From IMG/VR virus record IMGVR_UViG_2698536454_000007: a DNA stretch of 38,464 nt; one strand, given 5' to 3'. The DNA comes from a virus (lineage: Duplodnaviria > Heunggongvirae > Uroviricota > Caudoviricetes). The notes below the pieces were generated by a model. It saw nothing but the letters and a program-made list of their open reading frames with translations. It was not told where the DNA came from and searched no databases. The position numbers were made by a program, and so were the translations under genes. This document shows, piece after piece, positions 1-14,206 of this stretch. The first letter of the stretch is position 1. Each line of letters starts with the position of its first letter.

Positions 1-487
1 TGGCGTTAACTTCTGGCATTTTCATCAACGCTTCAACGATATGTCCGTCGAATGTTGCCATGTCTTCCTGCAACAATTCCTGTGCGCTAATCACCATATC
101 AACGGTGATGTTTTCACATGTGTCGAACTTAACCATGACAGCGTTCTGTACTTCAGGGGCCAGCTTGTCAAAAGTGACGTTCATCGGATCGGATTCAGTC
201 TCAACCGGGACAAAGGAAGCAGACTCCTCATCCCAGCGGTTTTCCTGCATATATTCAGCATCCCAGGAATCGAGGGCAGGGCGGGGTATGCCGGGTTTAT
301 CCTCACAGACAATAAATTTATAAGCGCAGTCCTGAGCTGCAGGGAATTGCTCCAGAAATTGCCAATGAAATTTTGCGCGTGCGCGACGCTCATCACCAGC
401 TTCAATGGCAGTGGCCACCGCAACAGCGCTATCTTCTTTTATGGCCTGTTCATCAGGAATAGCAGCGCAAATAAAGACTTTACTCAT
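1..487 (-). CDS. YdfE-like prophage protein, N-terminal part; the gene runs off the left edge of the window
   Basis: Minus-strand ATG at 487..485 preceded by GAGGTAA Shine-Dalgarno; frame stays open to position 1 (MSKVFICAAIPDEQAIKEDSAVAVATAIEAGDERRARAKFHWQFLEQ...). It is the last gene of the dicB-type operon by position. Product assignment is by synteny and recollection only. Confidence 0.5.
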   Translation of the reverse strand, partial: MSKVFICAAIPDEQAIKEDSAVAVATAIEAGDERRARAKFHWQFLEQFPAAQDCAYKFIVCEDKPGIPRPALDSWDAEYMQENRWDEESASFVPVETESDPMNVTFDKLAPEVQNAVMVKFDTCENITVDMVISAQELLQEDMATFDGHIVEALMKMPEVNA

Positions 488-579
488 TTTGTTTTACCTC
501 ATTACAGATTTAAGGGTGAACAAATCCCTGCCATTGCTGGCATATAAGAATGAAACCGGATGTTTATTACGGAACTGTT

Positions 580-771
580 TTAAAGACCTGCCGGGATTTC
601 GTTATTATCCTGGTGAATAACTTTATCGACCGGGTAACAGTTACCGGGAATTTTCCGTTCGGTTGCTGCAGTCACACACTCCTGCATTGTCCTGTGAACA
701 CTGACTGCAATATCAACTGGCTCTCCGGAAACAAGAAAAACTGTCAGAACAAGTGCAAATGCTGTATTCAT
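580..771 (-). CDS. ydfD: YdfD-like small protein (63 aa) with hydrophobic N-terminus; the Qin homologue is reported to cause lysis
   Basis: ATG at 771..769 overlaps the dicB stop in an ATGA arrangement (translational coupling). Product MNTAFALVLTVFLVSGEPVD..., 63 aa, same length and position as ydfD downstream of dicB in Qin. Confidence 0.6.
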   Translation of the reverse strand: MNTAFALVLTVFLVSGEPVDIAVSVHRTMQECVTAATERKIPGNCYPVDKVIHQDNNEIPAGL

Positions 772-956
772 TGCCAGCATCCTTTTTGTATCGGACGTAA
801 ACGGGCCAGCATTGAAAGAATGCATATTTTATTTAATAGCTCCCGTTCGTGTTTTCTCTTGTTAATGGCATCTTCAGTAAATACAGGGTTACTGATAGTG
901 ACACCAATTTCAAAACAACCTTCAGACGTATTAACGTTTGGTAATAACGTTTCCAT
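768..956 (-). CDS. dicB: Cell division inhibitor DicB (62 aa)
   Basis: ATG at 956 with GAGGA Shine-Dalgarno 7 nt upstream. Product METLLPNVNTSEGCFEIGVTISNPVFTEDAINKRKHERELLNKICILSMLARLRPIQKGCWQ matches my recollection of E. coli DicB, and it sits immediately downstream of DicF. Confidence 0.8.
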   Translation of the reverse strand: METLLPNVNTSEGCFEIGVTISNPVFTEDAINKRKHERELLNKICILSMLARLRPIQKGCWQ

Positions 957-1130
957 TATCGCGTCCTCAACAATGAATTTTGTGATGTGGTGCCTGGTGC
1001 CTCCAGGTGACGTTAACCAGTTAACAATTAACGCCGGATACAGAGAATCCACCCATAACACTGTTTTTGGTTTTAACTGTTCCGCGTGCGCTCAGCCGCA
1101 TTCACCGCATCACAAAATTCACTTTAAAAA

Positions 1131-1183
1131 CGGCGGCAGAGCAGTCACGGAGTAAAACTGATACCGCCAAACGTCACCAGAAA
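1131..1183 (-). ncRNA. dicF: DicF small regulatory RNA (about 53 nt, processed from the dicB operon transcript)
   Basis: Reverse complement of 1131-1183 reads TTTCTGGTGACGTTTGGCGGTATCAGTTTTACTCCGTGACTGCTCTGCCGCCG followed by TTTTT, matching the DicF sequence as I recall it at 52 of 53 positions. It lies between ydfC-like and dicB as in Qin. Ends are approximate. Confidence 0.7.
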
Positions 1184-1523
1184 ATTGATAACAGAGGGCG
1201 TTGCAGCGGGGTTGTCGCTTAAGCGTATGGTCAACCTGACAACCCGGTGTCCTCAACGGGGAAGGAATAACCCCGCCATACTTACCGCCGCGCCATTTCG
1301 CGGAGTGCCACAACCGGAAGCGCACGGTCGACGAAAATTTAACGACAGGCTATCTATGAACCAGCTACCTCGCCGTGCGCTTTCGCGTTATGGTCTGACT
1401 TTTCATGGAAATATCCTTTCAGTAAACTGTCAGTGCCGGATGCTCACCCATGTCCGGCGCACGCACTCCACCTCACCCGTGGAGAACTCCTTAATTACCA
1501 ACCTTAGCTTCGTTGGTTAGCTA

Positions 1524-1742
1524 TTAACGCGGGTATGTAATCATTCTGGCAATGCTTAATGCCGCTGCTTTTTCCAGCCTGGTGATATCCTGCTCCAGAG
1601 CGGACAGATTTTCAGCCTGCTTAGCCCTGGCTTCATTGGCCCATTTCAGATCCTGCGCTGCATTAATTTTCTGGCGCATCCACTCATAAAGTTCATCATC
1701 GGTATAGTCTGGCGAGATGATGACGGGTTCTCGTTTCTGCAT
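1524..1742 (-). CDS. YdfC-like small prophage protein (72 aa)
   Basis: ATG at 1742 with AGGA Shine-Dalgarno 6 nt upstream; third gene of a tightly packed leftward operon; size and order match Qin ydfC. Confidence 0.6.
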   Translation of the reverse strand: MQKREPVIISPDYTDDELYEWMRQKINAAQDLKWANEARAKQAENLSALEQDITRLEKAAALSIARMITYPR

Positions 1743-1771
1743 ACTGATTCCTCGCGGTGCTGCTTCGCTTA

Positions 1772-1900
1772 TCAGCCGTTAGATTTTGCCGAGCTGGAAA
1801 GCGCCTGTTTAAACTCACTGAAGCTGAGAGCTTCTTCGCCTTCGGCAAGGCCTTCGAAGTATTCTTCGTAAGCCTTTTCCATGATTGTGTCGAAATCCAT
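1772..1900 (-). CDS. YdfB-like small acidic protein (42 aa)
   Basis: ATG at 1900, one base after the upstream gene's TGA stop (TGAtATG). Product MDFDTIMEKAYEEYFEGLAEGEEALSFSEFKQALSSSAKSNG. Below the 60-aa cutoff of the ORF track; found by manual translation. Confidence 0.55.
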   Translation of the reverse strand: MDFDTIMEKAYEEYFEGLAEGEEALSFSEFKQALSSSAKSNG

Positions 1901-1901
1901 A

Positions 1902-2057
1902 TCACTCACCTGAGTTTCTTTCCAGCCAGCGACGGGCACCATTTTCGGTTTTAAACGTTTTGCTTCTGGTATACGTCATCGCGGTAAACGTGCCGTCCTG
2001 GTTGGGAAACACGCCGCATACCAGAGATTCGTTGTTGCCAAGATCGATAGTATTCAT
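1902..2057 (-). CDS. YdfA-like small prophage protein (51 aa; the DUF1391 family name is recalled, not verified)
   Basis: ATG at 2057 with GAGG Shine-Dalgarno 5-6 nt upstream. Product MNTIDLGNNESLVCGVFPNQDGTFTAMTYTRSKTFKTENGARRWLERNSGE. First gene downstream of the operator palindrome. Confidence 0.6.
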   Translation of the reverse strand: MNTIDLGNNESLVCGVFPNQDGTFTAMTYTRSKTFKTENGARRWLERNSGE

Positions 2058-2145
2058 GCTGACCTCATTTCCCCTTAACGCCGGGGTAGCGGAACTGTTT
2101 GCTGAGAACACCGTGCGGTGTCTTGGTGGAGATTAATTTAGAATA

Positions 2146-2192
2146 ACCTAACAAATGTGGCAAGTATTTTTGTTAGATTGATCTAACAAAAA
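2146..2192. promoter_or_regulatory. Operator/promoter region of the leftward dicB-type operon: perfect palindrome TTGTTAGAT-TG-ATCTAACAA plus a CCTAACAAA half-site
   Basis: The 9-bp inverted repeat at 2171-2190 is seen directly; a related half-site lies at 2147-2155. It sits between the repressor gene's stop and the first operon gene. Confidence 0.55.
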
Positions 2193-2224
2193 GAGTGAGG
2201 GAATCTAAGTATCTGAAAGGAGTG

Positions 2225-2632
2225 TTATTTTATTGATTTGTTTTTACGTGCTTTAAGCATTTCTTCGAAGAGTTTATTGAAATTCTCTACTCTTGCGCGC
2301 ATTTCAGACAGTAAGGCTTCCTGCTCGGAGGAGGGAAGAGCATCGAATAATTCGATCAATTCTTTGTGGCTGGGAGTTAACTCGGTTTCCACATGAAGTT
2401 CTTGTGCTGGCACTGGTGCCTTGTCTTCGTCACCAAACATTAGCCATGTAGGCGAGCACTTCAGCGCATCAGCTAAAGCAAATAACCGCTTCCCGACCGG
2501 TTGGGTTTCGTCTCTTTCCCATTGTGAAATTGTGACGTGAGCTACCCCAGCGAGGCGTGCAGCTTCTCGTTGTGTTAGGCGTAATTCTTTTCGTCGTGCC
2601 AGAACTCGCTGGCCTAGGGTTCTTGTATCCAT
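2225..2632 (-). CDS. dicA: DicA-like prophage repressor, XRE-family HTH, 135 aa, no LexA-like cleavage domain
   Basis: N-terminal HTH (LTQREAARLAGVAHVTISQWERDETQP) and a C-terminal region ...LFALADALKCSPTWLMFGDEDK...ELIELFDALPSSEQEALLSEMRARVENFNKLFEEMLKAR that closely matches recalled DicA. Divergent from a Cro-like gene. No obvious Shine-Dalgarno upstream. Confidence 0.85.
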   Translation of the reverse strand: MDTRTLGQRVLARRKELRLTQREAARLAGVAHVTISQWERDETQPVGKRLFALADALKCSPTWLMFGDEDKAPVPAQELHVETELTPSHKELIELFDALPSSEQEALLSEMRARVENFNKLFEEMLKARKNKSIK

Positions 2633-2681
2633 AGTTAGGTAATTCTAATTTTTCTTGACTTAGGTATCCCGCGCACATTGC

Positions 2682-2699
2682 TGTTAGGAATATCTAACA
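2682..2699. promoter_or_regulatory. Operator in the divergent dicA/dicC intergenic region (TGTTAGG-AAT-ATCTAACA)
   Basis: Imperfect palindrome sharing the TGTTAG/CTAACA half-sites with the 2171-2190 operator; located between the divergent start codons at 2632 and 2713. Confidence 0.5.
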
Positions 2700-2712
2700 A
2701 GAGGGGGCTTTG

Positions 2713-2940
2713 ATGCTTAAAGTTGACGCAATTACTTTTTTTGGCAGCAAAACAAAACTTGCCAATGCCGCAGGAGTGAAACTGGCAAGTGTTGCTGCAT
2801 GGGGGGAACTGGTTCCTGAAGGTCGCGCGATGCGCCTGCAAGAGGCATCCGGCGGGGAACTTCAGTACGACCCCAAAGTTTATGACGAATATCGTAAGGC
2901 AAAGCGGGCGGGGCGGTTGAACAATGAAAATCACCCCTGA
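2713..2940 (+). CDS. dicC: DicC-like Cro-type regulator (75 aa)
   Basis: ATG at 2713 with GAGGGGG Shine-Dalgarno 5 nt upstream. Product MLKVDAITFFGSKTKLANAAGVKLASVAAWGELVPEGRAMRLQEASGGELQYDPKVYDEYRKAKRAGRLNNENHP resembles recalled DicC. The ORF-track entry at 2710 is a TTG-extended version. Confidence 0.75.
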   Translation: MLKVDAITFFGSKTKLANAAGVKLASVAAWGELVPEGRAMRLQEASGGELQYDPKVYDEYRKAKRAGRLNNENHP

Positions 2941-3445
2941 ACAGGTTTGTGAGGCTCTGGATGCCTGGGTATGCCGACCAGGAATGACACAGGAGCAGGC
3001 GACGATATTAATCACGGAAGCATTCTGGGCTCTGAAAGAACGCCCGAACATCGATGTTCAACGCGTCACGTTTAATGATGGCGAGGTTGATCAACGGGCG
3101 TTGGGCGTTAACCGGGTGAAGATATTCGAACGCTGGAAAGCTATCGACACCAGGGATAAGCGGGAAAAATTCACGGCGCTGATTCCGGCAATTATGGAGG
3201 CTATCCGGATCAGCGATTTCAGGTTGTATTGTGAAATTACTGACGGAAAAAGCATTACGTACATGATCGCCGGGTTAAACAAAGAATATGGTGATGTGGT
3301 GGAGTCCGGGCTGCTTTTTGCGGATCCATCTGTTGTGGAACGTGAGACTGACGAGCTTATAGAAAAAGCTATTGCTTTCAAGCATGCGTATCGTCAGCAA
3401 TACCAACAAAAAGCTGGATGGAATTATGAGCCTTCTTTTTGCTGA
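2924..3445 (+). CDS. YdaT-like early regulatory protein (173 aa); function tentative
   Basis: Second gene of the rightward operon, overlapping the Cro-like stop; position corresponds to ydaT after ydaS in Rac-type prophages. Weak Shine-Dalgarno. Confidence 0.45.
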   Translation: MKITPEQVCEALDAWVCRPGMTQEQATILITEAFWALKERPNIDVQRVTFNDGEVDQRALGVNRVKIFERWKAIDTRDKREKFTALIPAIMEAIRISDFRLYCEITDGKSITYMIAGLNKEYGDVVESGLLFADPSVVERETDELIEKAIAFKHAYRQQYQQKAGWNYEPSFC

Positions 3446-4391
3446 ACGCCCACTGGTTATAAACACACAGCTTGCGATGAAGATTGGCTTAAATGAAGCC
3501 ATTGTGTTGCAGCAGTTGCATTACTGGTTGAGAGATACCAGTTCCGGTATGGAATGTGACGGGGTTCGCTGGATTTATAACACAACAGAACAATGGCTGG
3601 AACAGTTCCCGTTCTGGTCAGAGTCAACGTTAAAACGCGCATTTGCAAGTCTGAAAACGCTGGGGCTTTTGCGTTGCGAAAAGCTCAACAAATCAAAGCG
3701 TGATATGACTAATTTTTACACGATTAATTACGAGAGTGAGCTTTTAGATGGTGGCAAAGTGAGCGAATCCATCAGGTCAAAATGCGCCGCTCCATCGGGT
3801 CAAAATGACACGATGGAAGAGGTCAAAATGGCACGCTCCATTGGTTCAAAACGACCCAATGTCATCGGGTCAAAATGGCCTGATGATCTTACAGAGAATA
3901 CAACAGAGATTACTACAGAGAATAAAAACACTTCTCGTCCGGAAGCTTCGCAACCGGACCCGCAGACGGCTGAACAGGATTTTTTAACCCGACACCCTGA
4001 CGCGGTTGTGTTCAGTGCGAAAAAACGCCAGTGGGGAAGTCAGGAAGATTTGGCGTGCGCACAGTGGATCTGGGGACGAATCGTGAGTCTTTACGAGCAG
4101 GCTGCCAGCGATGATGGCGAGATCACGCGACCGAAAGAACCAAACTGGACCGCATGGGCCAATGACGTGCGCACAATGCGGATGCTGGATGGCAGAAGCC
4201 ACAGACAAATTTGCGAAATGTTTGGTCGGGTACAGCGAGATCCATTCTGGGTAAAAAACATCATGAGCCCGTCAAAGCTTCGCGAAAAATGGGACGACCT
4301 GGTCATCCGCCTGGGGCGTTCACCTGTACAGTGTTGTGTGAATCATATTTCTGAACCGGATACCGAAATTCCGCCTGGTTTCAGGGGATAA
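3426..4391 (+). CDS. Replication initiator (replisome-organizer / O-like protein) with the origin iterons inside the gene
   Basis: N-terminal winged-helix-like region (LVINTQLAMKIGLNEAIVLQQLHYWL...) typical of phage replisome organizers; five direct repeats lie within its linker-coding region. The start is ambiguous (ATG 3426 versus ATG 3384 or TTG 3372). Confidence 0.75.
   Translation: MSLLFAERPLVINTQLAMKIGLNEAIVLQQLHYWLRDTSSGMECDGVRWIYNTTEQWLEQFPFWSESTLKRAFASLKTLGLLRCEKLNKSKRDMTNFYTINYESELLDGGKVSESIRSKCAAPSGQNDTMEEVKMARSIGSKRPNVIGSKWPDDLTENTTEITTENKNTSRPEASQPDPQTAEQDFLTRHPDAVVFSAKKRQWGSQEDLACAQWIWGRIVSLYEQAASDDGEITRPKEPNWTAWANDVRTMRMLDGRSHRQICEMFGRVQRDPFWVKNIMSPSKLREKWDDLVIRLGRSPVQCCVNHISEPDTEIPPGFRG
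3768..3877. repeat. Putative replication origin: five ~23-bp iterons (core GGTCAAAATG) followed by an A-rich repeated segment
   Basis: Direct repeats TCCATCAGGTCAAAATG (3768), TCCATCGGGTCAAAATG (3791), AGAGGTCAAAATG (3818), TCCATTGGTTCAAAACG (3837), GTCATCGGGTCAAAATG (3861), then ACAGAGAATA repeats at 3891-3925. Lambda likewise has its ori iterons inside O. Confidence 0.7.
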
Positions 4392-4431
4392 GTGGTGATT
4401 TTAGGGCATAAAGTAATGTTCAGGAGGACTT

Positions 4432-4839
4432 ATGGCAAAAGTATTTACACAGGAAGAGCGGGAAAAAATTAAAGGACAGGTGGTGGAACTCGTGCGCCAG
4501 AGCGGTCGTGAGACGTTACGGCAACTGGAAGCTAAAACAGGTGCGACAAGATATCTGATGAGCGTTCTTGCCAGAGAGCTGGTTGCCAGTGGTGATGTAT
4601 ATCACTCTGGCTATGGGGTGTTCCCGTCAGAACGGGCTCGTAAGGACTGGCAAAACGCCCGCAAAAAACTCTCGAGGGCAAAGGTGAAGAAACCTGTTGT
4701 GGTTGATCCGGGCCTTATCTGGACATTACCCGACGGAGAAATACGCCGCTACGACAGGCGTATGAACATAATCTGTCGCGAGTGCCGGAAGAGCGAAGTT
4801 ATGCAGCGTGTATTGGCGTTCTATCAGGGATATGCCTAG
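4432..4839 (+). CDS. Hypothetical protein (135 aa), basic, possibly DNA-binding
   Basis: Strong AGGAGG Shine-Dalgarno 6 nt before ATG 4432; base composition like the phage backbone; no family recognised. Confidence 0.6.
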   Translation: MAKVFTQEEREKIKGQVVELVRQSGRETLRQLEAKTGATRYLMSVLARELVASGDVYHSGYGVFPSERARKDWQNARKKLSRAKVKKPVVVDPGLIWTLPDGEIRRYDRRMNIICRECRKSEVMQRVLAFYQGYA

Positions 4840-5207
4840 AATTGTCACAGGTAATGAAATTAAAGAGTATTGGTTCGGATATGAATTGACATTTTCGCGG
4901 CACAGAGCTAAAAATAGCCTACTTGTTGGTTTTGTGTGAAAAGCAGACATTTTGAGGCTCAGGATTTGTTATCAAATAAGACCAATACTTATCTATATTA
5001 ATACACATTAAATACTGTGCAATACATTATTACATTTTATTAGATAAGCGATATTTAGGGAAAAGAAAAGTCATAGAAAACAGGCCGCTATTTGTTGTTG
5101 GATTTTATAGGCTATATCTAGATTATCTTGCCACTGCGGTCTCTGTTTACCTAACAGCTTGGGCTTCTTTGCATGCAAGTTTGTAATAACAAGAGTAATC
5201 AAACGGA

Positions 5208-6239
5208 ATGTCTATTAATCCTAAACTTAAGCGTATCGCGCGACGCTATCCAGCGTTATTCCAATATGAGTCCCCCTATATGGCAAGAAAATTAATAATA
5301 TTCGGCAACGGTCTCGGTATGGCTTTAGATCCTGCTCACTTCTCCTTAGACAGAGCGTTGGAAGAAATTTGGCATCGCCCCAATTTTTTAAAAGATATCC
5401 ACAAGCAACTTATCGAGCGTTGTCTTCAGCGGCAAGGTCCACCAGAAGGAGAACATGAGTTGGATACCCTTCACCAGGCTGTCACATATTGTAAAGCTCT
5501 TGCTCAAATTGGAGAGGGGAACGTGCATTGGCTTACTGAAGATGGACTAAACTTCCCCAAAATTACCGCCACTTATATTCACAAAGTTGCAACCAGGTTG
5601 CATAATTACGATAAAGGTTTGCCACAAAGATTCGAAAATGCGCTTGTGGAGTTTGTAAAGAACACACACTCACATATCGCGACATTAAACTATGACAAAT
5701 TATTATACAATTCATTCATAGATAATGATATATTCAACGGGTATGATGGGGTTTTAGTTGATGGGATGCTAAGCCACGGATTTTCCTCTGCAGCGCTCGA
5801 ACGGAAATACAATCGTAGGTTTGGTTATTATTTGCACTTGCATGGTTCACCACTATTTATTAATCAGCATGAAAATGTTTTAAAACTTTCACGCTCACAA
5901 CTTACTCTTGACATAGATGAACCTAGTGAGCATATAGTGTTAACTCATATAAAAAGAAAACCGTCAGTTATAGCAGCATCTAATGTTCTTTCTACGTACT
6001 GGGATTATTTGCAGTTTGCATTATTTGAATCAGAAGAAATAATATTGTTTGGTTACTCTGGTCTCGATATTCACCTTAACCTGCTTATTCGACCTTACCT
6101 AACCTCTAAGCCTTTAAGAGTAATTGAGTGGAGCGGTGCTGGTGAACAAAACGCTCGTGAGATATATTGGAAAAACCAGTTGAGACGGGAAGTTACTGTA
6201 ATTAGGTTGGATAACATCACTGATTTTATTGATTGGTAG
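5208..6239 (+). CDS. Standalone SIR2-like (sirtuin-fold, predicted NAD-binding) protein, 343 aa; candidate anti-phage effector
   Basis: Motifs in sirtuin order: Gly-rich IIFGNGLGMA (res ~31-40), TLNYDKLL (compare sirtuin TQNIDxL), HLHGS (catalytic-His HG motif), ILFGYSGLD (GYS/GTS motif). The gene and its flanks are visibly AT-rich relative to neighbours. Weak Shine-Dalgarno (ACGGA). Confidence 0.65.
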   Translation: MSINPKLKRIARRYPALFQYESPYMARKLIIFGNGLGMALDPAHFSLDRALEEIWHRPNFLKDIHKQLIERCLQRQGPPEGEHELDTLHQAVTYCKALAQIGEGNVHWLTEDGLNFPKITATYIHKVATRLHNYDKGLPQRFENALVEFVKNTHSHIATLNYDKLLYNSFIDNDIFNGYDGVLVDGMLSHGFSSAALERKYNRRFGYYLHLHGSPLFINQHENVLKLSRSQLTLDIDEPSEHIVLTHIKRKPSVIAASNVLSTYWDYLQFALFESEEIILFGYSGLDIHLNLLIRPYLTSKPLRVIEWSGAGEQNAREIYWKNQLRREVTVIRLDNITDFIDW

Positions 6240-6553
6240 CGCAATGCGAAGTTAAAGAGGCAGCCTCATATTTATCAGAGCTGGTGTACGTCCAATACAG
6301 GAGGTTATCGTGCTGGTTCTCAAATGCGCGCTGGCTATTGCGGCTGTAGTGGCAATTTATTGTCTTGCTATTGTTCTTATGGATCGCCTTTCTGATTGAT
6401 TTTATATTGGCGAGGTGACGGGAGTTAAGTAGAATTGCTGCGGGTGCTTGAGGCTGTCTGCCTCGGGCATGCCACCGTAAGGCAGACAGAGAAAAGCCCC
6501 AGTTAACATTACGCGTCCTGCAAGACGCTTAACATTAATCTGAGGCCCAATCT

Positions 6554-6766
6554 ATGCTTCACAAACGTAGGTTAGCCTCTTACGCGCCGAAAGGCAAGGA
6601 GAAGCAGGCTATGAAGCAGCAAAAGGCGATGTTAATCGCCCTGATCGTCATCTGTTTAACCGTCATAGTGACGGCACTGGTAACGAGGAAAGACCTCTGC
6701 GAGGTACGAATCCGAACCGGCCAGACGGAGGTCGCTGTCTTCACAGCTTACGAACCTGAGGAGTAA
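6554..6766 (+). CDS. mok: Mok-like reading frame, an in-frame N-terminal extension of hok (70 aa)
   Basis: ATG at 6554 with GAGG upstream; same frame and stop as hok, as in chromosomal mok/hok loci. Confidence 0.5.
   Translation: MLHKRRLASYAPKGKEKQAMKQQKAMLIALIVICLTVIVTALVTRKDLCEVRIRTGQTEVAVFTAYEPEE
6611..6766 (+). CDS. hok: Hok/Gef-family type I toxin (51 aa), HokD/RelF-like
   Basis: Product MKQQKAMLIALIVICLTVIVTALVTRKDLCEVRIRTGQTEVAVFTAYEPEE: a single transmembrane helix plus the conserved Hok C-terminal region; AGGAG upstream; fold-back stem (CTGTCTGCC...GGCAGACAG) in the 5' leader at 6457-6490. Confidence 0.85.
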   Translation: MKQQKAMLIALIVICLTVIVTALVTRKDLCEVRIRTGQTEVAVFTAYEPEE

Positions 6767-6834
6767 GAGACCAGGCGGGGGAGAAATCCCTCGCCACCGC
6801 TGATGTGTCAGGCATCCTCAACGCACCCGCACTT

Positions 6835-6866
6835 AACCCGCTTCGGCGGGTTTTTGTTTTTATTTT
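6835..6866 (+). terminator. Rho-independent terminator downstream of hok
   Basis: CCCGC-TTCG-GCGGG hairpin followed by TTTTTGTTTTTATTTT. Confidence 0.7.
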
Positions 6867-6982
6867 CAACGCATTTGAAGTTCTGGACGGTGTCGGAATA
6901 GAATCAAAAATACTTAAGTAGCGCGCAGGGATAAGAGGGATGGTCCCTTAAAGGGGAGAGCTAATTATCCGGAAGGATTCTG

Positions 6983-7234
6983 ATGATGAACATCGAAGAA
7001 CTGCGTAAAATTTTTTGTGAAGATGGCCTCTATGCTGTGTGCGTTGAAAATGGAAATATTGTTAGTCATTACCGCATTGTGTGTTTGCGAAAGAATGGGG
7101 CTGCGTTAATTAATTTTGTGGATGGTCGAGTGACAGACGGATTTATCTTGCGCGAAGGTGAGTTTGTCACTTCATTACAGGCACTGAAAGAGATCGGAAT
7201 AAAAGCTGGCTTTTCTGCTTTTTCAGAAGAATAA
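6983..7234 (+). CDS. Rem-like small prophage protein (83 aa), function unknown
   Basis: GGAAGGA Shine-Dalgarno before ATG 6983; size and position (between hok and the DUF968 gene) match rem of Qin. Confidence 0.55.
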   Translation: MMNIEELRKIFCEDGLYAVCVENGNIVSHYRIVCLRKNGAALINFVDGRVTDGFILREGEFVTSLQALKEIGIKAGFSAFSEE

Positions 7235-7300
7235 ACTCATCTACAATCTTGCGCGGGGCTGAACTCCCGCTGAGTAACACCGTGCCGCCGGAGGAAACCG

Positions 7301-7579
7301 ATGGCACGCAACGCAAAATATTACAATCATGATAATTCGACCGTTCTTGCCCACACGCACGAGCGGTATTCTCACGCATTTAAGTCAGACTGGTACCAGC
7401 ATCCCCCATGCACTGAAGAACAGGCCGAATGGCTCATTCAGTGTTACCGCAGGCGCGGATGCGAGGTTAAAAAAGCCCTTAGCCTCGACTACCGTCACTG
7501 GATAATCTCCGTCGGGCTTCCTTACTCCGAACGCCCACCGCGTCTGTCCCGCACATTCCAGCAACGCATCTGGAGGTAA
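7301..7579 (+). CDS. Hypothetical protein (92 aa)
   Basis: GGAGGAAA Shine-Dalgarno 5 nt before ATG 7301; stop abuts the GTG start of the next gene. Confidence 0.55.
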   Translation: MARNAKYYNHDNSTVLAHTHERYSHAFKSDWYQHPPCTEEQAEWLIQCYRRRGCEVKKALSLDYRHWIISVGLPYSERPPRLSRTFQQRIWR

Positions 7580-7580
7580 C

Positions 7581-8630
7581 GTGCGGGTATTACTTCGACC
7601 TGTTCTGGTACCGGAACTCGGGCTGGTGGTCCTTAAGCCCGGTCGCGAATCACTGCCGGTTTTTCATTGCGGCAGGGTGCTGGTGGAGCCGGAACCGAAA
7701 AGCATGCGCGGTCTGCCGTCCGGAGTCGTCCCTGCCGTTCGCCAGCCGCTGGCGGAGGATAAATCATTACTGCCATTTTTCAGCGATGAGCGTGTGATTC
7801 GTGCTGCTGGCGGCGCTGGCGCACTGTCTGACTGGCTCCTGCGTCATGTCAAATCCTGCCAGTGGCCTCATGGTGACTACCATCACAGTGAAACCGTCAT
7901 ACATCGTTATGGTACCGGCGCAATGGTGTTGTGCTGGCACTGCGACAACCAGCTGCGCGACCAGACCTCCGAATCACTCGGGCAACTTGCTCACCAAAAC
8001 CTGTCTGCATGGATGATTGACGTCATACGCCATGCAATGAATGGCTCGCAGGAACGGGAATTATCGCTGGCTGAATTATCCTGGTGGGCGATCCGCAATC
8101 AGGTGGCGGACGCGCTACCGGAAGCGGTATTACGTCGTTCGCTGGGGTTGCGTGCGGAAAAAATCCGCTCAATGTACCGTGAAAGCGACATCGTACCGGG
8201 AGAGCAGACCGCCACCAGCATACTGAAACAGCGCACAAAAAATCTTGCGCCGCTGCCTCACGCCCACCAGCAACAGAACCCGCCACAGGAAAAGACGGTG
8301 GTCAGCATTGCTGTTGATCCGGAGTCTCCGGAATCTTTAATGAAGCGACCTAAACGTCGCCGTTGGGTAAATGAGAAATATACGCGCTGGGTAAAGACAC
8401 AGCCGTGTGCGTGTTGTGGTAAGCCAGCCGACGATCCCCATCACCTGATTGGTCATGGTCAGGGCGGAATAGGGACAAAAGCCCACGATATTTTCACGCT
8501 ACCGTTGTGCCGGGAGCATCACAACGAACTTCATGCTGATCCGCTGGCATTTGAAGAAAAGCATGGTTCCCAGATTGATTTAATTTTTCGTTTTCTTGAT
8601 CGCGCCTTTGCAACCGGCGTGCTCGGGTAA
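7581..8630 (+). CDS. DUF968-family protein (YdfU-like, 349 aa) with a C-terminal Cys/His-rich HNH-like motif
   Basis: GTG start with GGAGG 5 nt upstream; C-terminal CACCGKPADDPHHLIGHGQGG...LCREHHNELH; size and synteny match ydfU. Confidence 0.75.
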   Translation: MRVLLRPVLVPELGLVVLKPGRESLPVFHCGRVLVEPEPKSMRGLPSGVVPAVRQPLAEDKSLLPFFSDERVIRAAGGAGALSDWLLRHVKSCQWPHGDYHHSETVIHRYGTGAMVLCWHCDNQLRDQTSESLGQLAHQNLSAWMIDVIRHAMNGSQERELSLAELSWWAIRNQVADALPEAVLRRSLGLRAEKIRSMYRESDIVPGEQTATSILKQRTKNLAPLPHAHQQQNPPQEKTVVSIAVDPESPESLMKRPKRRRWVNEKYTRWVKTQPCACCGKPADDPHHLIGHGQGGIGTKAHDIFTLPLCREHHNELHADPLAFEEKHGSQIDLIFRFLDRAFATGVLG

Positions 8631-8642
8631 AAGAGGTTACTG

Positions 8643-9002
8643 ATGCGTATAGAGTTTGTTTTGCCTTACCCGCCGACGGTGAACACCTACTGGCGACGTC
8701 GTGGCAGCACATATTTTGTGTCAAAAGCCGGTGAGCGTTATCGCCGGGATGTGGCACTTATTGTTCGCCAGCAGCGGCTGAAATTAAACCTGTCCGGAAG
8801 GCTGGCGATAAAGATTATTGCAGAGCCACCGGATAAGCGCCGCCGCGACCTGGACAATATCCTGAAGGCACCACTGGATGCGCTTACGCATGCCGGACTA
8901 CTTATAGACGACGAGCAGTTTGATGAAATCAATATTGTGCGCGGTCAGCTCGTTTCTGGTGGGCGGCTGGGCGTGAAGATTTACAAAATTGAAAGTGAGT
9001 GA
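8643..9002 (+). CDS. rusA: Holliday junction resolvase RusA
   Basis: 119 aa; motifs PPTVNTYW and RRRDLDNILKAPLDALT are characteristic of RusA; AAGAGG Shine-Dalgarno. Confidence 0.85.
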   Translation: MRIEFVLPYPPTVNTYWRRRGSTYFVSKAGERYRRDVALIVRQQRLKLNLSGRLAIKIIAEPPDKRRRDLDNILKAPLDALTHAGLLIDDEQFDEINIVRGQLVSGGRLGVKIYKIESE

Positions 9003-9010
9003 GCATAAAT

Positions 9011-9565
9011 ATGATATACCCGGAAATTACAGGCAAAAGCGGTGAGCATTTACGCCTGAAAACGCTGGAAAGTGTCTGGATCCAGGGGAAACTGCGTATG
9101 TGGGGGCGTTGGTCGTATATTGGCGACGGTAAGACGGGAAATATGTTCAACCAATTACTGATCTCTAAAAAGCTGACAAAAACGGCAATTAACGAGGCGC
9201 TCCGGAGGATGAAAAAAGCGGGTCTGGACAAACCTGAACTTGAGGCTTTTTTGCGGGATATGATCAACGGCAATCAAAAAAGCTGGCTGGCACATTGTAC
9301 CGATTCAGAGGCGTTAATAATCGACAGGGTTATTGGTGAAGTACTGGCAGGTTATCCCGGGCTGCTCAATGTTCTGAGTCAGCGTTATGTGGGGCGGGGG
9401 ATGACTAAGCGCAAAATGGCTGAACTGCTGAATGATGCACATCCGGAATGGAGTTTAAGAACCTGTGAAAGACGCATTGAGCATTGGCTAAAGGTGGCAG
9501 AATTTATTTTGTACAAACCAATGGTTATGGCTTTTGGTATAGAGAAAAAAGTTATTGCTTTTTGA
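9011..9565 (+). CDS. Late-gene antiterminator Q-like protein
   Basis: Position (after rusA, immediately before an intrinsic terminator and the late-operon cargo and lysis genes) is the canonical Q slot; family assignment is by synteny. Alternative GTG start at 8999. Confidence 0.55.
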   Translation: MIYPEITGKSGEHLRLKTLESVWIQGKLRMWGRWSYIGDGKTGNMFNQLLISKKLTKTAINEALRRMKKAGLDKPELEAFLRDMINGNQKSWLAHCTDSEALIIDRVIGEVLAGYPGLLNVLSQRYVGRGMTKRKMAELLNDAHPEWSLRTCERRIEHWLKVAEFILYKPMVMAFGIEKKVIAF

Positions 9566-9642
9566 CGTAAAAACTGCTTCAATTCCGGTAAGCTTCGCAA
9601 AGCTGTACCGCGAGGCGAATAGCAGACATGGACATTTGAAAG

Positions 9643-9667
9643 AGCCCGCTTTTTGCGGGTTTTTTTA
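9643..9667 (+). terminator. Intrinsic terminator downstream of Q (tR'-like); the late promoter presumably lies in 9566-9640
   Basis: GCCCGC-TTTTT-GCGGG hairpin followed by a run of 7 T. The promoter itself is not resolved. Confidence 0.65.
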
Positions 9668-9987
9668 TGACTGAAAAACGGCACGGGGCGTTAAACGCGC
9701 TGGTGGTTGCTAATACCGGTCTTTCAACTTGCTGGCTTTTTCGACAAGAGTTATTGGTATGTCACGTTAACCGGAAAATGGAAAAAGGCATGCTAAAACA
9801 GCAGGATATGACCGAAACCGCCAGAGTGGTGTTTAATGAATTAAGCGTCACCGAACCGGCGACCGCCGGGGAAATTGCGCAGAACACTTATCTTTCACGC
9901 GAACGCTGCCAGTTAATACTGACCCAGCTTGTTATGGCGGGTCTGGCAGATTATCAGTTCGGTTGTTACAGACGCCTTCCTCAGTGA
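9667..9987 (+). CDS. Small putative winged-helix DNA-binding protein; start codon uncertain (9667, 9778 or 9790)
   Basis: C-terminal part ATAGEIAQNTYLSRERCQLILTQLVMAGLA looks like an HTH; none of the candidate starts has a good Shine-Dalgarno. Confidence 0.35.
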   Translation: MTEKRHGALNALVVANTGLSTCWLFRQELLVCHVNRKMEKGMLKQQDMTETARVVFNELSVTEPATAGEIAQNTYLSRERCQLILTQLVMAGLADYQFGCYRRLPQ

Positions 9988-10137
9988 AGGCTTTTTTATT
10001 TGTGGTAATGGGCGGCTGGTGGGTGTTAGCGGCACCTGCCAGCCATCTGCTCATGCGTTGGGGTCACAAGCAAACCTCAGGCCCATCTGCTTTGCGCAAA
10101 AGCGGTATGAGCCTATCAGAGAAGTGCTTATTGATCT

Positions 10138-11196: not shown

Positions 11197-11236
11197 TATT
11201 GAAGAATTAATTACGCGTCGTTATTATGCGGCTCCC

Positions 11237-11312
11237 GGCCCTTTAGCTCAGTGGTGAGAGCGAGCGACTCATAATCGCCAGGTCGCTGGTTCAAATCCAG
11301 CAAGGGCCACCA
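11237..11312 (+). tRNA. ileZ: tRNA with CAU anticodon (Met or lysidine-modified Ile2; ileZ-like)
   Basis: Cloverleaf: acceptor GGCCCTT/AAGGGCC, D-arm AGCTCAGTGGTGAGAGC, anticodon loop CTCATAA, T-arm GGTTCAAATCC, 3' CCA. Confidence 0.85.
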
Positions 11313-11319
11313 TCACATA

Positions 11320-11396
11320 CCGCTATTAGCTCATCAGGAAAGAGCGCCAGCCTTCGAAGCTGGCTGCGCGGGGTTCAAGTCCCCGATGGCGGTCCA
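11320..11396 (+). tRNA. argN: tRNA-Arg (anticodon UCG)
   Basis: Acceptor CCGCTAT/ATGGCGG, anticodon stem-loop GCCAG-CCTTCGAA-CTGGC, T-arm GGTTCAAGTCC, CCA end. Confidence 0.85.
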
Positions 11397-11409
11397 TTAT
11401 CTGCATCAT

Positions 11410-11486: not shown

Positions 11487-11502
11487 CACTTATTTTCCCT
11501 GG

Positions 11503-14202: not shown

Positions 14203-14206
14203 TTCA

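What the first reader, a model, noticed from the sequence alone, without database searches (positions are those of the whole stretch)
3768..3935. Replication origin embedded in the initiator gene: five ~23-bp iterons plus an A-rich repeat
Five direct repeats with core GGTCAAAATG at roughly 23-bp spacing lie inside the replication initiator coding region, followed by ACAGAGAATA-type repeats. This is the same design as lambda ori inside O, but with different iterons, so the sequence has to be both an initiator-binding array and the coding sequence of the initiator's linker region.
Basis: partly seen in the sequence, partly recalled or inferred. Interest (0 to 1): 0.45.

Follow-up and report, generated by a model that had tools for sequence, protein, structure and literature searches.

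The report
Phage replication origin inside initiator gene
A prophage's replication origin (five to six 23-bp protein-binding repeats followed by an easily melted A-rich repeat) lies inside the gene for the protein predicted to bind it, as in phage lambda; the design is known, but this very common family is untested, is labelled 'hypothetical protein', and lacks the usual helicase-loader gene.

Summary
Five 23-nt direct repeats lie at 3770-3885 (spacing 23, 23, 23, 24), with a sixth degenerate unit at 3747-3769. Their consensus is the near-palindrome CATCGGGTCA-AAA-TGACCCGATG. Three ACAGAGAWTAC repeats follow at 3891-3926. All lie inside a 321-aa gene (3426-4391) whose C-terminal domain is homologous to lambda O.

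- The repeats fall in all three reading frames.
- Third-codon relaxation is absent in the array.
- The array encodes a predicted disordered linker.
- The A-rich repeat is the least stable DNA in the gene.
- Iteron sequence changes with the N-terminal domain, not the C-terminal domain.
- Within the family, residue 67 of the predicted recognition helix covaries with the base flanking the iteron core.

This is the ori-lambda design in an uncharacterised family that has no Pfam model.

Three extras emerged:
- The ACAGAGAWTAC element is constrained at the DNA level (Glu codon GAG 69/69) and is shared by several initiator families across phyla.
- The module has no P, DnaC or DnaB gene, an 'O-only' type that the literature calls not understood.
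- The initiator ends in a copy of the DnaT C-terminal tail, which suggests how it recruits the host helicase.

Nothing here has been tested experimentally.

The parts
3426..4391 (+). Replication initiator gene (321 aa, lambda-O-like; RefSeq WP_000054523.1 'hypothetical protein'). Its start overlaps the end of the upstream cII-like/YdaT gene by 20 nt.
   Evidence: ORF list; RefSeq CDS on an identical sequence; PHROG 391, E 7.5e-95; no Pfam hit; lambda O C-domain homology, E 3e-27.
3426..3746 (+). Coding region of the N-terminal domain (aa 1-107), a predicted winged-helix iteron-binding domain. The putative recognition helix is aa 64-78 (nt 3615-3659), with S67 as a candidate base-reading residue.
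   Evidence: The AF2 model has H-H-E-E-H-H-E-E topology at pLDDT 60-80. The best fold matches are RepA_N initiator N-terminal domains and wHTH regulators, weakly (E about 0.01). Residue 67 covaries with the iteron arm base.
3747..3769 (+). Iteron unit 0, degenerate in this window (GATGGTGGCAAAGTGAGCGAATC, 14/23 to consensus).
   Evidence: In register 23 nt before unit 1. The equivalent unit reads GAGGTCAAAGTGAC in relatives L003, L004 and L092-L097.
3770..3792 (+). Iteron 1, CATCAGGTCAAAATGCGCCGCTC (left half-site good, right arm degenerate).
3793..3815 (+). Iteron 2, CATCGGGTCAAAATGACACGATG (22/23 to consensus; 18/23 self-complementary).
3816..3838 (+). Iteron 3, GAAGAGGTCAAAATGGCACGCTC (core intact, arms degenerate).
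3839..3861 (+). Iteron 4, CATTGGTTCAAAACGACCCAATG (palindromic variant, 16/23 self-complementary).
3863..3885 (+). Iteron 5, CATCGGGTCAAAATGGCCTGATG (21/23 to consensus), the unit next to the A-rich repeats. A GATC site lies at 3885-3888.
3888..3928 (+). Proposed DNA-unwinding / helicase-entry element: three ACAGAGAWTAC repeats (3891-3902, 3903-3914, 3915-3926) that also encode TENTTEITTENK. This is the least stable 40-nt stretch of the gene.
   Evidence: Nearest-neighbour stability -1.14 kcal/mol per step against an ORF mean of -1.41, the 99.3rd percentile of the window. Conservation 0.90 overall and 0.94 at third codon positions. Glu codon GAG 69/69. Present after the iterons in 45 of 64 diverged loci and in other initiator families.
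3966..4307 (+). Coding region of the lambda-O-type C-terminal domain (aa 181-294), the predicted replisome-recruitment domain.
   Evidence: BLASTP against lambda O; helical in the AF2 model; lambda O's C-domain is assigned to PF09524 by HHpred in PMC5509034.
4335..4388 (+). C-terminal tail CVNHISEPDTEIPPGFRG, a near copy of the last 17 residues of E. coli DnaT (14/17 identical). Candidate host-primosome / DnaC-type-loader recruitment peptide.
   Evidence: phmmer against the PDB hits DnaT chains 2ru8, 6aep and 9zbt on the tail only. NCBIfam DnaT positions 162-179. hhalign aligns the tail only. Association with absence of phage loader genes. The same tail is present on Rac YdaU.
4432..4839 (+). 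Next gene: DUF977 / Ren-like. It marks the place where lambda has P; no helicase or loader gene follows the initiator.
   Evidence: Pfam DUF977, E 1.7e-29; PHROG 142 'Ren-like'; no lambda P, DnaC, YdaV or DnaB homologue downstream.
2225..3445 (.). Upstream immunity/early region: HTH repressor (2225-2632, minus strand), P22-Cro-like gene (2710-2940, plus) and cII-like/YdaT gene (2924-3445, plus). Rightward early transcription is expected to run through the origin.
   Evidence: Pfam and PHROG hits; RefSeq annotation. No consensus promoter was detected by the simple scan, so transcription through the origin is an inference from gene order.

Best explanation
Window 3747-3928 is the vegetative replication origin of a lambdoid prophage. 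It lies inside the linker-coding part of its own initiator gene.

Proposed mechanism:
1. Dimers of the initiator's N-terminal winged-helix domain bind the palindromic 23-bp iterons. Residue S67, at the start of the recognition helix, reads the base flanking the CAAAATG core. (Inferred from covariation.)
2. Five to six bound units with phased A4 tracts form an O-some-like nucleoprotein complex. (Inferred by analogy with ori-lambda.)
3. This complex destabilises the adjacent ACAGAGAWTAC repeats, the least stable DNA of the gene. Their sequence-level conservation suggests that one unwound strand or the duplex is specifically recognised. (Low stability and conservation are shown; unwinding and recognition are inferred.)
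4. The lambda-O-type C-terminal domain and the DnaT-like C-terminal peptide recruit the host DnaB helicase through a DnaC-type loader or primosome component, because the phage encodes no P, DnaC or DnaB. (The absence of such genes is shown; the recruitment route is a hypothesis.)

The same DNA is translated as a disordered Ser/Thr/Glu-rich linker.
For: Anatomy
- The repeats are real and unique in the window.
- Their consensus is a 20/23 palindrome and the units fall in three reading frames.
- AAAA tracts are phased at 23, 23, 23 and 24 nt, and the least stable 40-mer of the gene is 3888-3928.
- The array encodes the pLDDT-26 disordered segment, aa 109-178.

Gene identity
- PHROG 'replication initiation O-like'.
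- The C-domain is homologous to lambda O.
- Layout, order and polarity match the annotated lambda ori: iterons at O codons about 117-145, then the A-rich tract (PMC7466680).

DNA-level selection
- Identity to the window sequence across 12 diverged enterobacterial homologues is 0.75/0.87/0.43 at codon positions 1/2/3 in the N-domain, but 0.77/0.80/0.77 in the iteron cores and 0.90 (third positions 0.94) in the A-rich repeat.
- Iterons occupy all three frames across loci, 65/32/29.
- The Glu codon inside the A-rich repeat is GAG 69/69, against 297 GAG and 478 GAA elsewhere in the same ORFs (p about 1e-16 in the set below 65% identity).

Linkage and specificity
- 40 of 64 loci with N-domain homologues have at least 3 iteron-like units at 21-24 nt; 36 have both elements, against a background of about 0.3 per 330 nt.
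- L005 has the same C-domain as L003 but a different N-domain and different iterons. L004 has a different C-domain but the same N-domain and iterons.
- Five other N-domain families have their own iterons at the same 22-24-nt period.
- Residue 67 covaries with the iteron arm base: S with T at -1 (280/326 units), D with G at -1 (59/59 units), R with G at +1.

Viability
- Plaque-forming phages HannyBb, mEp460 and PhiR42_1 carry the same gene at 93-94% identity.
Against: - There is no experimental evidence for this family: no binding, footprint, origin-cloning or replication-start mapping was found.
- The N-terminal domain has no Pfam model, the AF2 model is weak (mean pLDDT 54), and fold matches are marginal (E about 0.01).
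- The simple scans found no promoter for transcriptional activation and no DnaA or IHF sites, so the host-factor input is unknown.
- The helicase-recruitment step is unresolved. The tail/loader association is based on related sequences, has one exception in 30 loci (L245), and the tail also occurs with a DnaC-like gene in Rac.
- In-frame deletion variants that retain only about 1-2 iterons exist in E. coli genomes. Either many copies are cryptic or fewer iterons suffice.
- The A-rich repeat is nearly always read in one frame (91 of 100), so a role for the TE(N/I)TTE peptide cannot be excluded.
Confidence: 0.85

Rival explanations
1. The array is a protein-level feature: a tandem peptide repeat or low-complexity linker that expanded by slippage, with no DNA-level function.
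For: - The region encodes a predicted disordered linker.
- Units in the same frame give similar peptides (SIRSK, SIGSKR, VIGSKW).
- The A-rich repeat is read as TE(N/I)TTE in 91 of 100 cases.
- Copy number varies in frame: L090 has one extra 12-nt unit, and P0018 carries a 93-nt deletion.
Against: - A 23-nt period is not a multiple of three, so the units are read in all three frames both in the window and across loci.
- Conservation shows no codon periodicity in the iteron cores (0.77/0.80/0.77).
- The units are DNA palindromes.
- Glu is encoded by GAG 69/69 times in the A-rich repeat, even in hosts that prefer GAA.
- 11-nt spacings shift the frame within some arrays while the DNA motif is kept.
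Confidence: 0.03
2. The iterons are genuine initiator-binding sites, but they serve mainly in autoregulation, copy-number or incompatibility control (handcuffing or titration). Alternatively, this copy is an inactive relic in a cryptic prophage and replication starts elsewhere.
For: - Iterons in plasmids also mediate autorepression and handcuffing (established knowledge).
- In-frame iteron-collapse variants exist in E. coli genomes.
- A frameshifted copy exists in Shigella (L115).
- About a third of complete E. coli genomes carry the gene, many probably in defective prophages.
Against: - The array is adjacent to the least stable DNA of the gene, in the same order and polarity as in ori-lambda.
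- The iterons-plus-A-rich-repeat cassette is conserved in viable phages and across phyla.
- No second iteron cluster exists elsewhere in the window.
- The gene here is intact and identical in at least three complete genomes.
Confidence: 0.07
3. The ACAGAGAWTAC repeats are not an unwinding or loading element. They are conserved because they form a module junction (a recombination 'linker' that lets N-domain/iteron cassettes be swapped onto different C-domains), or because of the TE(I/N)TTE peptide or an mRNA-level feature.
For: - Mosaic junctions fall at the right edge of the repeat: window against L004, L003 against L005, and P0026.
- The element is shared by initiators with unrelated N- and C-domains.
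- The reading frame is almost always the same.
Against: - Recombination cannot homogenise DNA between phages of Escherichia, Staphylococcus and Geobacillus, yet the motif and the GAG codon are invariant.
- It is the least stable DNA of the gene.
- It occupies exactly the position of the lambda and SPP1 AT-rich DUE.
- It lies within about 3-60 nt of the last iteron in every family examined.
- Rfam finds no RNA family here.

A junction role and an origin role are not mutually exclusive.
Confidence: 0.12
4. The repeats are binding sites for another factor (Cro/CI-type repressor, cII-like activator, DnaA, IHF or terminase) rather than for the initiator.
For: The region lies in the early operon close to the immunity genes, and palindromic 23-bp sites resemble operators in form.
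Against: - The iteron sequence tracks the initiator N-domain across loci with different immunity regions: HannyBb, mEp460_4F5, Klebsiella and Gram-positive phages.
- Residue 67 of the initiator covaries with the arm base.
- No DnaA-box or IHF consensus occurs in 2600-4500.
- Operators would be expected in the 2633-2709 intergenic region.
Confidence: 0.02

Closest known systems
ori-lambda inside gene O of phage lambda, and the 6-iteron origins of Stx phages
   Same: - The origin is embedded in the middle of the initiator gene, between the DNA-binding N-domain and the recruitment C-domain.
- There are 4-6 direct repeats, each an inverted repeat with a central A-tract, spaced 20-24 bp.
- An A/purine-rich low-stability tract lies on the promoter-distal side.
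- Extra iterons add residues to the linker.
- The C-terminal domain is homologous (34% identity, E 3e-27).
(PMC7466680.)
   Different: - The N-terminal domain is unrelated in sequence: no PF04492 hit and no BLAST match.
- The iterons differ: 23-nt CATCGGGTCAAAATGACCCGATG against 18-19-nt ATCCCTCAAAACGAGGGA.
- The A-rich tract consists of sequence-conserved ACAGAGAWTAC repeats rather than a generic AT-rich run.
- No P gene follows.
- The protein ends in a DnaT-like tail that lambda O lacks.
'O-only' lambdoid replication modules (phage LLS and 34 of 314 enterobacterial lambdoid phages; Genome Res 2025, PMC12315714)
   Same: [quoted passage not shown]
   Different: That paper states that none of these phages has been studied and that their replication is 'not yet understood'. 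It does not describe their origins. Whether LLS O belongs to the same N-domain family was not tested here, because no supplement is held.
SPP1 oriL inside gene 38 (replisome organiser G38P, Pfam PF09524)
   Same: - The origin (iteron 'AB boxes' plus an adjacent AT-rich DUE) is embedded in the initiator gene, in the segment between the N-domain and a PF09524 C-domain.
- It was shown to be necessary and sufficient in vitro (PMC5737612).
- Relatives of the window protein (L004, L109, L113) carry the same PF09524 C-domain.
   Different: - The repeats differ: about 11-nt GAAAAAGACAC-type boxes, with no 23-nt period and no ACAGAGAWTAC array.
- There is no detectable sequence similarity to the window protein.
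- SPP1 encodes its own loader (G39P) and helicase (G40P).
RepA_N plasmid initiators of Gram-positive bacteria (pSK41 and pTZ2162 RepA; PDB 4pql, 4pt7, 5kbj)
   Same: These are the best, though weak, structural matches to the predicted N-terminal winged-helix domain. From my own knowledge, not tested here: in RepA_N replicons the iterated origin also lies within the central part of the rep gene.
   Different: The fold match is marginal (E about 0.01, on a model with pLDDT 54). There is no sequence-level relationship. They are plasmid rather than phage systems, with different iterons.
E. coli DnaT (primosomal protein) and DnaT_C-bearing O-like proteins (DopC; Rac prophage YdaU)
   Same: - The last 17-18 residues are nearly identical: VNHISEPDTEIPPGFRG against DnaT VNTVSEPDSQIPPGFRG and YdaU VNTVSLPDSAIPPGFRG.
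- A DnaT C-terminal motif on an O-like protein was reported for DopC (PMC5509034).
   Different: - Only the tail is similar; hhalign aligns 20 residues.
- The window protein lacks the DnaT N-terminal domain, and no match to DnaT's ssDNA-binding three-helix bundle was detected.
- YdaU has a different N-terminal domain (DUF1376) and is followed by the DnaC-like YdaV.

Membership tests
Lambdoid 'origin inside the initiator gene' (ori-lambda type) | The origin lies inside the initiator ORF, between the DNA-binding and recruitment domains. | tested here: met
   The array at 3747-3928 corresponds to codons 108-168 of ORF 3426-4391. This falls between the predicted N-domain (aa 14-100) and C-domain (aa 183-295), in the predicted disordered segment 109-178.
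Lambdoid 'origin inside the initiator gene' (ori-lambda type) | Four or more direct repeats (iterons) with internal dyad symmetry and A-tracts, spaced about two helical turns apart. | tested here: met
   Five to six units at 23-24 nt; the consensus is a 20/23 palindrome; AAAA tracts are phased at 23, 23, 23 and 24 nt. Lambda's spacing is 20, 24 and 23 nt.
Lambdoid 'origin inside the initiator gene' (ori-lambda type) | An AT-rich, strand-asymmetric unwinding region lies directly after the last iteron, on the promoter-distal side. | tested here: met
   Positions 3888-3928 are the least stable 40-mer of the ORF, at the 99.3rd percentile of the window. GC is 35% and the plus strand is A-rich (24 A against 11 T in 50 nt). 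The order matches lambda. Actual unwinding was not tested.
Lambdoid 'origin inside the initiator gene' (ori-lambda type) | The initiator is homologous to lambda O. | tested here: inconclusive
   The C-terminal domain is homologous (34% identity over 148 aa, E 3e-27). The N-terminal domain has no detectable similarity to lambda O and no Pfam Phage_rep_O hit.
Lambdoid 'origin inside the initiator gene' (ori-lambda type) | The initiator's N-terminal domain binds the iterons specifically. | not testable with these tools
   Indirect support only: iterons co-vary with the N-domain family, and residue 67 covaries with the arm base. EMSA or footprinting is needed.
Lambdoid 'origin inside the initiator gene' (ori-lambda type) | The fragment supports initiator-dependent replication. 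| not testable with these tools
   An origin-cloning assay is needed. Viable phages (HannyBb, mEp460, PhiR42_1) carry the same gene at 93-94% identity.
Lambda O-P / P22 18-12 type two-gene replication module | A helicase loader (P, DnaC-like) or helicase (DnaB-like) gene lies directly downstream of the initiator. | tested here: not met
   The next gene is DUF977/Ren-like. There is no lambda P, DnaC, YdaV or DnaB homologue within 3.1 kb downstream in the window, nor in L002-L005. The module is therefore of the 'O-only' type (PMC12315714).
SPP1 G38P-type replisome organiser (Pfam PF09524 / Phg_2220_C) | A PF09524 C-terminal domain. | tested here: inconclusive
   The window protein has no direct Pfam hit. 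Relatives with the same N-domain do: L004 9.6e-18, L109 2e-30, L113 3e-30. Lambda O's C-domain is reported as PF09524-like by HHpred (PMC5509034).
DnaT (primosomal protein, NCBIfam NF002770) | Full-length similarity: N-terminal oligomerisation domain, three-helix ssDNA-binding C-terminal domain and C-terminal tail. | tested here: not met
   Only model positions 162-179 match, at 14.2 bits against a cut-off of 201. phmmer and hhalign align the tail only. The protein is not a DnaT; it carries a DnaT-like terminal peptide.
Rac prophage oriJ / YdaU-YdaV module | A DUF1376 initiator followed by the DnaC-like YdaV. | tested here: not met
   K-12 YdaU is a DUF1376 protein with YdaV downstream. The window protein is a different family and lacks YdaV. 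Only the C-terminal tail is shared.

The most novel reading that the evidence does not exclude
The window holds a self-sufficient 'O-only' origin with two parts that are not described as such.

1. The ACAGAGAWTAC repeats may be a sequence-specific unwinding or helicase-entry element. It is shared, next to family-specific 23-bp iterons, by many otherwise unrelated phage initiators from Proteobacteria to Bacillota. This would make it a common cis-acting module of phage origins rather than generic AT-rich DNA.

2. The DnaT-like C-terminal peptide (...PDxxIPPGFRG) may be the element that hands the origin to a DnaC-type loader and DnaB, or to PriA/PriB, so that the phage needs no P. By extension, the same peptide in DnaT would be the unidentified DnaB/DnaC recruitment element of replication restart.
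Probability: 0.3. Interest if true: 0.75.

Novelty: new variant of a known kind. Interest (0 to 1): 0.5.

Why it matters
- Prevalence and annotation. A match covering at least 80% of this gene is present in 1783 of 5426 complete E. coli genomes, and the N-terminal domain occurs in 122 cultured phages of many genera. Yet RefSeq, UniRef and Pfam give it no function. Recognising the gene and its internal origin would correct a very common 'hypothetical protein'. It would also mark a cis-acting site that gene-centred annotation misses.

- Testable DNA recognition. The comparative data give a concrete protein-DNA recognition hypothesis: residue 67 reads the base flanking the CAxxxTG core.

- A shared origin element. 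The data define a conserved origin element (ACAGAGAWTAC) that can be searched for in any phage genome.

- An open question. The module belongs to the 'O-only' class, whose replication was described in 2025 as not understood. The DnaT-like tail offers a specific handle on how such phages, and possibly DnaT itself, recruit the replicative helicase.

- Practical use. The 200-bp cassette plus its initiator is a candidate compact, orthogonal replicon.

Tried and rejected
- Rac oriJ. I suspected the locus was the Rac prophage origin. K-12 Rac uses a different initiator (DUF1376 YdaU) plus YdaV, so I dropped this lead.
- Pfam, NCBIfam and PADLOC on the initiator. There were no family hits apart from the DnaT tail, and only sub-threshold winged-helix hints for the N-domain.
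- RNA element or promoter in the array. Rfam at E up to 1 found nothing, and no promoter- or terminator-like site overlaps the array.
- DnaA boxes and IHF sites in 2600-4500. None were found.
- Full-text search for the iteron and A-rich repeat sequences. It returned only unrelated primer hits. Searches for mEp460 and for origin descriptions found no account of this origin. The Genome Research supplement is not held.
- Homology of the lambda-O-type C-domain to the DnaT ssDNA-binding domain. hhalign with shallow profiles aligned only the 20-residue tail, so this is not supported here.
- Structure. AF2 with a 17-sequence alignment gave a mean pLDDT of 54. I used it only for domain boundaries and topology, and the fold matches are marginal.
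- SPP1 oriL as the same cassette. Rejected: its repeats differ and there is no protein similarity.
- 'The tail replaces a loader' as a strict rule. Rejected: L245 and Rac YdaU have the tail together with a DnaC-like gene. I reformulated the idea as a pathway that depends on a DnaC-type loader.
- Borrowing the IS-disrupted late-gene annotation of strain FDAARGOS_1059 for this window. Rejected: only window 1-14546 is collinear with that record.
Full report
**1. What is in the sequence**

Window 3770-3885 holds five 23-nt direct repeats with start-to-start spacing of 23, 23, 23 and 24 nt. Four carry the exact core GGTCAAAATG. The fourth reads GGTTCAAAACG. A sixth unit in register at 3747-3769 is degenerate here (14/23 to consensus), but it is a good copy in relatives.

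The five-copy consensus, CATCGGGTCA-AAA-TGACCCGATG, is a 20/23 palindrome. Units 2, 4 and 5 are palindromic (16-18/23). Units 0, 1 and 3 keep only the core and the left arm.

Three 12-nt repeats follow: ACAGAGAATACA, ACAGAGATTACT and ACAGAGAATAAA, at 3891-3926.

The array is far beyond chance:
- The 23-nt pattern is expected 0.00 times in shuffles.
- Exact cores occur nowhere else in the window.
- Only sliding windows that overlap the array reach a periodic autocorrelation of 0.5, against a mean of 0.33 elsewhere.

**2. The gene around it**

The array lies in ORF 3426-4391 (321 aa). Pfam gives no hit. RefSeq calls the protein 'hypothetical protein', and all close homologues in a search of 5.8 billion proteins carry that name and no Pfam domain.

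Other evidence identifies it as an initiator:
- PHROGs assigns it to phrog_391, 'replication initiation O-like', at E 7.5e-95.
- Residues 147-294 are 34% identical to the C-terminal half of lambda O (E 3e-27). The N-terminal 110 residues show no similarity to lambda O.

The context is a lambdoid early region: an HTH repressor (minus strand), a P22-Cro-like gene, a cII-like/YdaT gene, this gene, and then a DUF977/Ren-like gene.

Viable phages HannyBb, mEp460 and PhiR42_1 carry the gene at 93-94% nucleotide identity. A match covering at least 80% of the gene is present in 1783 of 5426 complete E. coli genomes.

**3. The repeats act as DNA, not as peptide**

- A 23-nt period cannot be a peptide repeat. 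The units are read in frames 2, 1, 0, 2, 2. Across related loci, iteron cores fall in all three frames (65/32/29).
- In an alignment with 12 enterobacterial homologues at 55-77% N-domain identity, identity to the window sequence in the N-domain is 0.75, 0.87 and 0.43 at codon positions 1, 2 and 3. In the iteron cores it is flat (0.77, 0.80, 0.77). In the A-rich repeats it is 0.90, and 0.94 at third positions. Directly downstream it falls to 0.56.
- The AF2 model is poor overall (mean pLDDT 54). It places a disordered segment at residues 109-178 (pLDDT about 26), which corresponds to nt 3750-3959. That is the stretch encoded by the array.

**4. The same layout as ori-lambda**

In lambda the four annotated iterons lie at O codons about 117-145, spaced 20, 24 and 23 nt. 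Each is an inverted repeat with a central A-tract. An A/purine-rich tract follows on the same strand and side (PMC7466680).

Here the iterons occupy codons 108/115-154 and the A-rich repeats codons 156-167. AAAA tracts are phased at 23, 23, 23 and 24 nt. Positions 3888-3928 are the least stable 40-mer of the gene (-1.14 against a mean of -1.41 kcal/mol per step), at the 99.3rd percentile of the whole window.

No Rfam family, promoter-like site, DnaA box or IHF consensus overlaps the region.

**5. Comparative evidence that the N-terminal domain reads the iterons**

*Module swaps.* L003 (mEp460_4F5) and L005 (vB_EcoM-720R4) share the C-terminal domain. L005 has a different N-terminal domain (HTH_36/DnaD_N-like) and different iterons with a 15-nt period. 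L004 (a Klebsiella phage) has a different C-terminal domain (PF09524) but the window's N-domain and iterons.

*Linkage.* N-domain homologues were found in 64 genome loci, from Enterobacteria to Geobacillus, Anoxybacillus, Staphylococcus, Neobacillus, Gilliamella, Acinetobacter and others.
- 40 have at least 3 iteron-like units at 21-24 nt just downstream of the domain.
- 45 have at least 2 ACAGAGAWTAC units.
- 36 have both, nearly always with the iterons first.
- Background elsewhere in the same loci is about 0.3 per 330 nt.

*Covariation.* Within the family, the residue aligned with window S67 covaries with the base flanking the CAxxxTG core. The local sequence is W64-S65-E66-S67-T68, at the start of predicted helix 66-78.

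| Residue 67 | Iteron bases next to the core |
|---|---|
| Ser | T at -1 (280 of 326 units in the ES class) |
| Asp | G at -1 in 59 of 59 units (SD, VD, AD, FD classes); C at +1 in most (all 39 SD units) |
| Arg | G at +1, C or A at -1 |
| Lys | A or T at -1, C at +2 |
| Val (with Glu at 66) | arms GATCA...TGATC |

Asp pairing with C and Arg pairing with G are chemically ordinary read-outs. The counts are not corrected for phylogeny, but several classes recur at different identity levels.

*Fold.* The predicted topology is H-H-E-E-H-H-E-E. The best fold matches, though marginal (E about 0.01), are N-terminal winged-helix domains of RepA_N plasmid initiators, including a Rep-DNA complex, followed by wHTH regulators.

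**6. The A-rich repeat is a conserved element in its own right**

In relatives it is nearly always read as TE(N/I/T)TTE (91 of 100 cases), so a peptide role had to be considered. When sites are selected by peptide alone, the Glu codon is GAG in 69 of 69 cases. Elsewhere in the same ORFs it is GAG 297 times and GAA 478 times (Fisher p 8e-11 and 1.5e-16 in the two identity classes). Arrays with 11-nt spacings keep the DNA motif through a frame shift.

I then ran the reverse test. A scan of viral contigs for CAGAGAWTACWACAGAGA gave 107 usable unique contexts.
- 69 had the window-type N-domain upstream.
- 38 had no N-domain detectable with my eight tblastn queries (E up to 1e-3). Nearly all of these lay inside other initiator-like ORFs with different N- and C-domains.
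- In five such families the DNA upstream of the repeat holds 3-5 iterons of family-specific sequence, again at a 22-24-nt period.

So the iterons change with the DNA-binding domain, while the period and the ACAGAGAWTAC element stay constant.

I infer that the element is the unwinding or helicase-entry site and that it is recognised sequence-specifically. Because it is independent of the iteron specificity, the recognition would be by a conserved feature of these initiators or of the host replisome. What recognises it is unknown.

A role as a recombination joint is compatible with this. Mosaic junctions fall at its right edge. That role cannot explain conservation across phyla.

**7. How the helicase gets there**

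No lambda P, DnaC-like or DnaB-like gene follows the initiator, either in the window or in its phage relatives.

This is the 'O-only' module type noted in Genome Research 2025: 34 of 314 enterobacterial lambdoid phages, none studied, with replication 'not yet understood' (PMC12315714).

The protein ends in CVNHISEPDTEIPPGFRG. DnaT ends in DVNTVSEPDSQIPPGFRG, which is 14 of 17 identical over the VN...FRG stretch. The similarity is confined to this tail.

Association with loader genes:
- In the genome-locus set, 0 of 15 loci with a terminal or near-terminal PxGFR motif have a phage loader or helicase downstream, against 18 of 42 loci without it (p 0.0013).
- In the independent motif-derived set, clustered at 80% identity, the figures are 0 of 10 against 21 of 45 (p 0.009).
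- The rule is not strict. One of 30 tail-bearing loci (L245) is followed by a YdaV gene.
- K-12 Rac YdaU also ends in ...VNTVSLPDSAIPPGFRG and is followed by the DnaC-like YdaV, mirroring the host dnaT-dnaC operon.
- In my sets the tail never accompanies lambda P or a phage DnaB.

My working hypothesis is that the tail couples the initiator to a DnaC-type loader, either the host's or a phage copy, or to another primosome protein.

The literature I read leaves the partner open. How DnaT recruits DnaB/DnaC 'remains unknown', and the authors suggest the DnaT N-terminal domain (PMC13377028). Residues 154-179 are known only to improve cooperative ssDNA binding (PMC4132743).

A DnaT C-terminal motif on an O-like protein has precedent in DopC, where it accompanies a P-like partner (PMC5509034). 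This part is therefore a lead and not a finding.

**8. Comparison with known systems, and novelty**

The design is that of ori-lambda and of SPP1 oriL. The latter is embedded in gene 38 and was shown to be necessary and sufficient in vitro (PMC5737612). SPP1's repeats and protein are not the same cassette. K-12 Rac's module is a different family.

What differs from the textbook cases:
- an N-terminal domain family with no curated model;
- its own 23-bp palindromic iterons;
- a sequence-conserved unwinding element shared across initiator families and phyla;
- the absence of a loader gene, together with a DnaT-like tail.

I therefore rate it a new variant of a known kind. The origin assignment is well supported (0.85), but nothing is experimentally shown.

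**9. Caveats**

- All evidence is computational.
- The association and covariation statistics treat related sequences as independent.
- The AF2 model is weak.
- Transcription through the origin is inferred from gene order only.
- In-frame 93-nt collapses that remove four iterons occur in some E. coli genomes. Some chromosomal copies are therefore probably inactive.

Noticed in passing
window 4335-4388; also L007 4120-4977 (Rac YdaU) and L245: The initiator ends in a near copy of the DnaT C-terminal tail (...SEPDTEIPPGFRG). The same tail closes Rac YdaU, which precedes the DnaC-like YdaV, mirroring dnaT-dnaC. In two locus sets the tail goes with absence of phage lambda P or DnaB genes (0/15 vs 18/42 loci; 0/10 vs 21/45 clusters), with one exception (L245: tail plus YdaV).
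   Followed up: partly
window 3891-3926; loci L155-L274: ACAGAGAWTAC tandem repeats occur directly after family-specific iterons of 22-24-nt period in at least six different phage initiator N-domain families, in both Gram-negative and Gram-positive hosts. They look like a shared origin module that, as far as I could find, is undescribed.
   Followed up: partly
P0018, P0020, P0022 against window 3771-3863: Some E. coli homologues are exactly 31 aa shorter. A 93-nt (23+23+23+24) in-frame collapse between iteron 1 and iteron 5 leaves one good iteron. These may be natural origin-defective prophages, or they may show that fewer iterons suffice.
   Followed up: partly
window 5208-6239 (+): A SIR2-family gene lies between the replication module and hokD. 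It hits Pfam SIR2_2 and gives weak PADLOC hits (Aga_SIR2, PDC-S21, SIR2; E 4e-6 to 4e-4). It is possibly a prophage-borne anti-phage defence gene. RefSeq calls a shorter form 'SIR2 family protein'.
   Followed up: partly
window 2924-3445 and 3426: The gene upstream of the initiator is labelled 'toxin YdaT family protein' in RefSeq, but PHROGs files it as a cII-like transcriptional activator (E 1.5e-41). Its last 20 nt overlap the initiator's start, which suggests translational coupling.
   Followed up: no
window 1-14546 against 14547-38464: The window is mosaic relative to complete genomes. Positions 1-14546 are 99.86% identical to a prophage of strain FDAARGOS_1059. Positions 14000-38464 are 100% identical to a region of strain 602687, where the identical initiator gene lies about 1 Mb away on the other strand. 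The late region of the FDAARGOS_1059 prophage is IS66-disrupted; I did not check the window's.
   Followed up: partly
L090, L091, L110 (genome-contig hits): MAGs labelled Veillonella parvula, 'Bacillota bacterium' and Collinsella carry this E. coli-type initiator at 96-98% amino-acid identity. These contigs are probably mis-binned Enterobacteriaceae prophage DNA.
   Followed up: no
window 3885-3888: A GATC (Dam/SeqA) site sits at the junction between the last iteron and the A-rich repeats. It is kept in most enterobacterial relatives in the alignment (GATGATCYTACAGAG).
   Followed up: no
L006 1165-1172 (lambda ori region): Lambda has a single CAGAGAAT just right of its AT-rich tract, within the small palindrome TCAGAGAATTCTGG. 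It matches the core of the window's repeat. This may be chance.
   Followed up: no
window 3690-3730: A second low-stability stretch (-1.15 kcal/mol per step) lies just upstream of the iterons, so the array is flanked by easily melted DNA on both sides.
   Followed up: no
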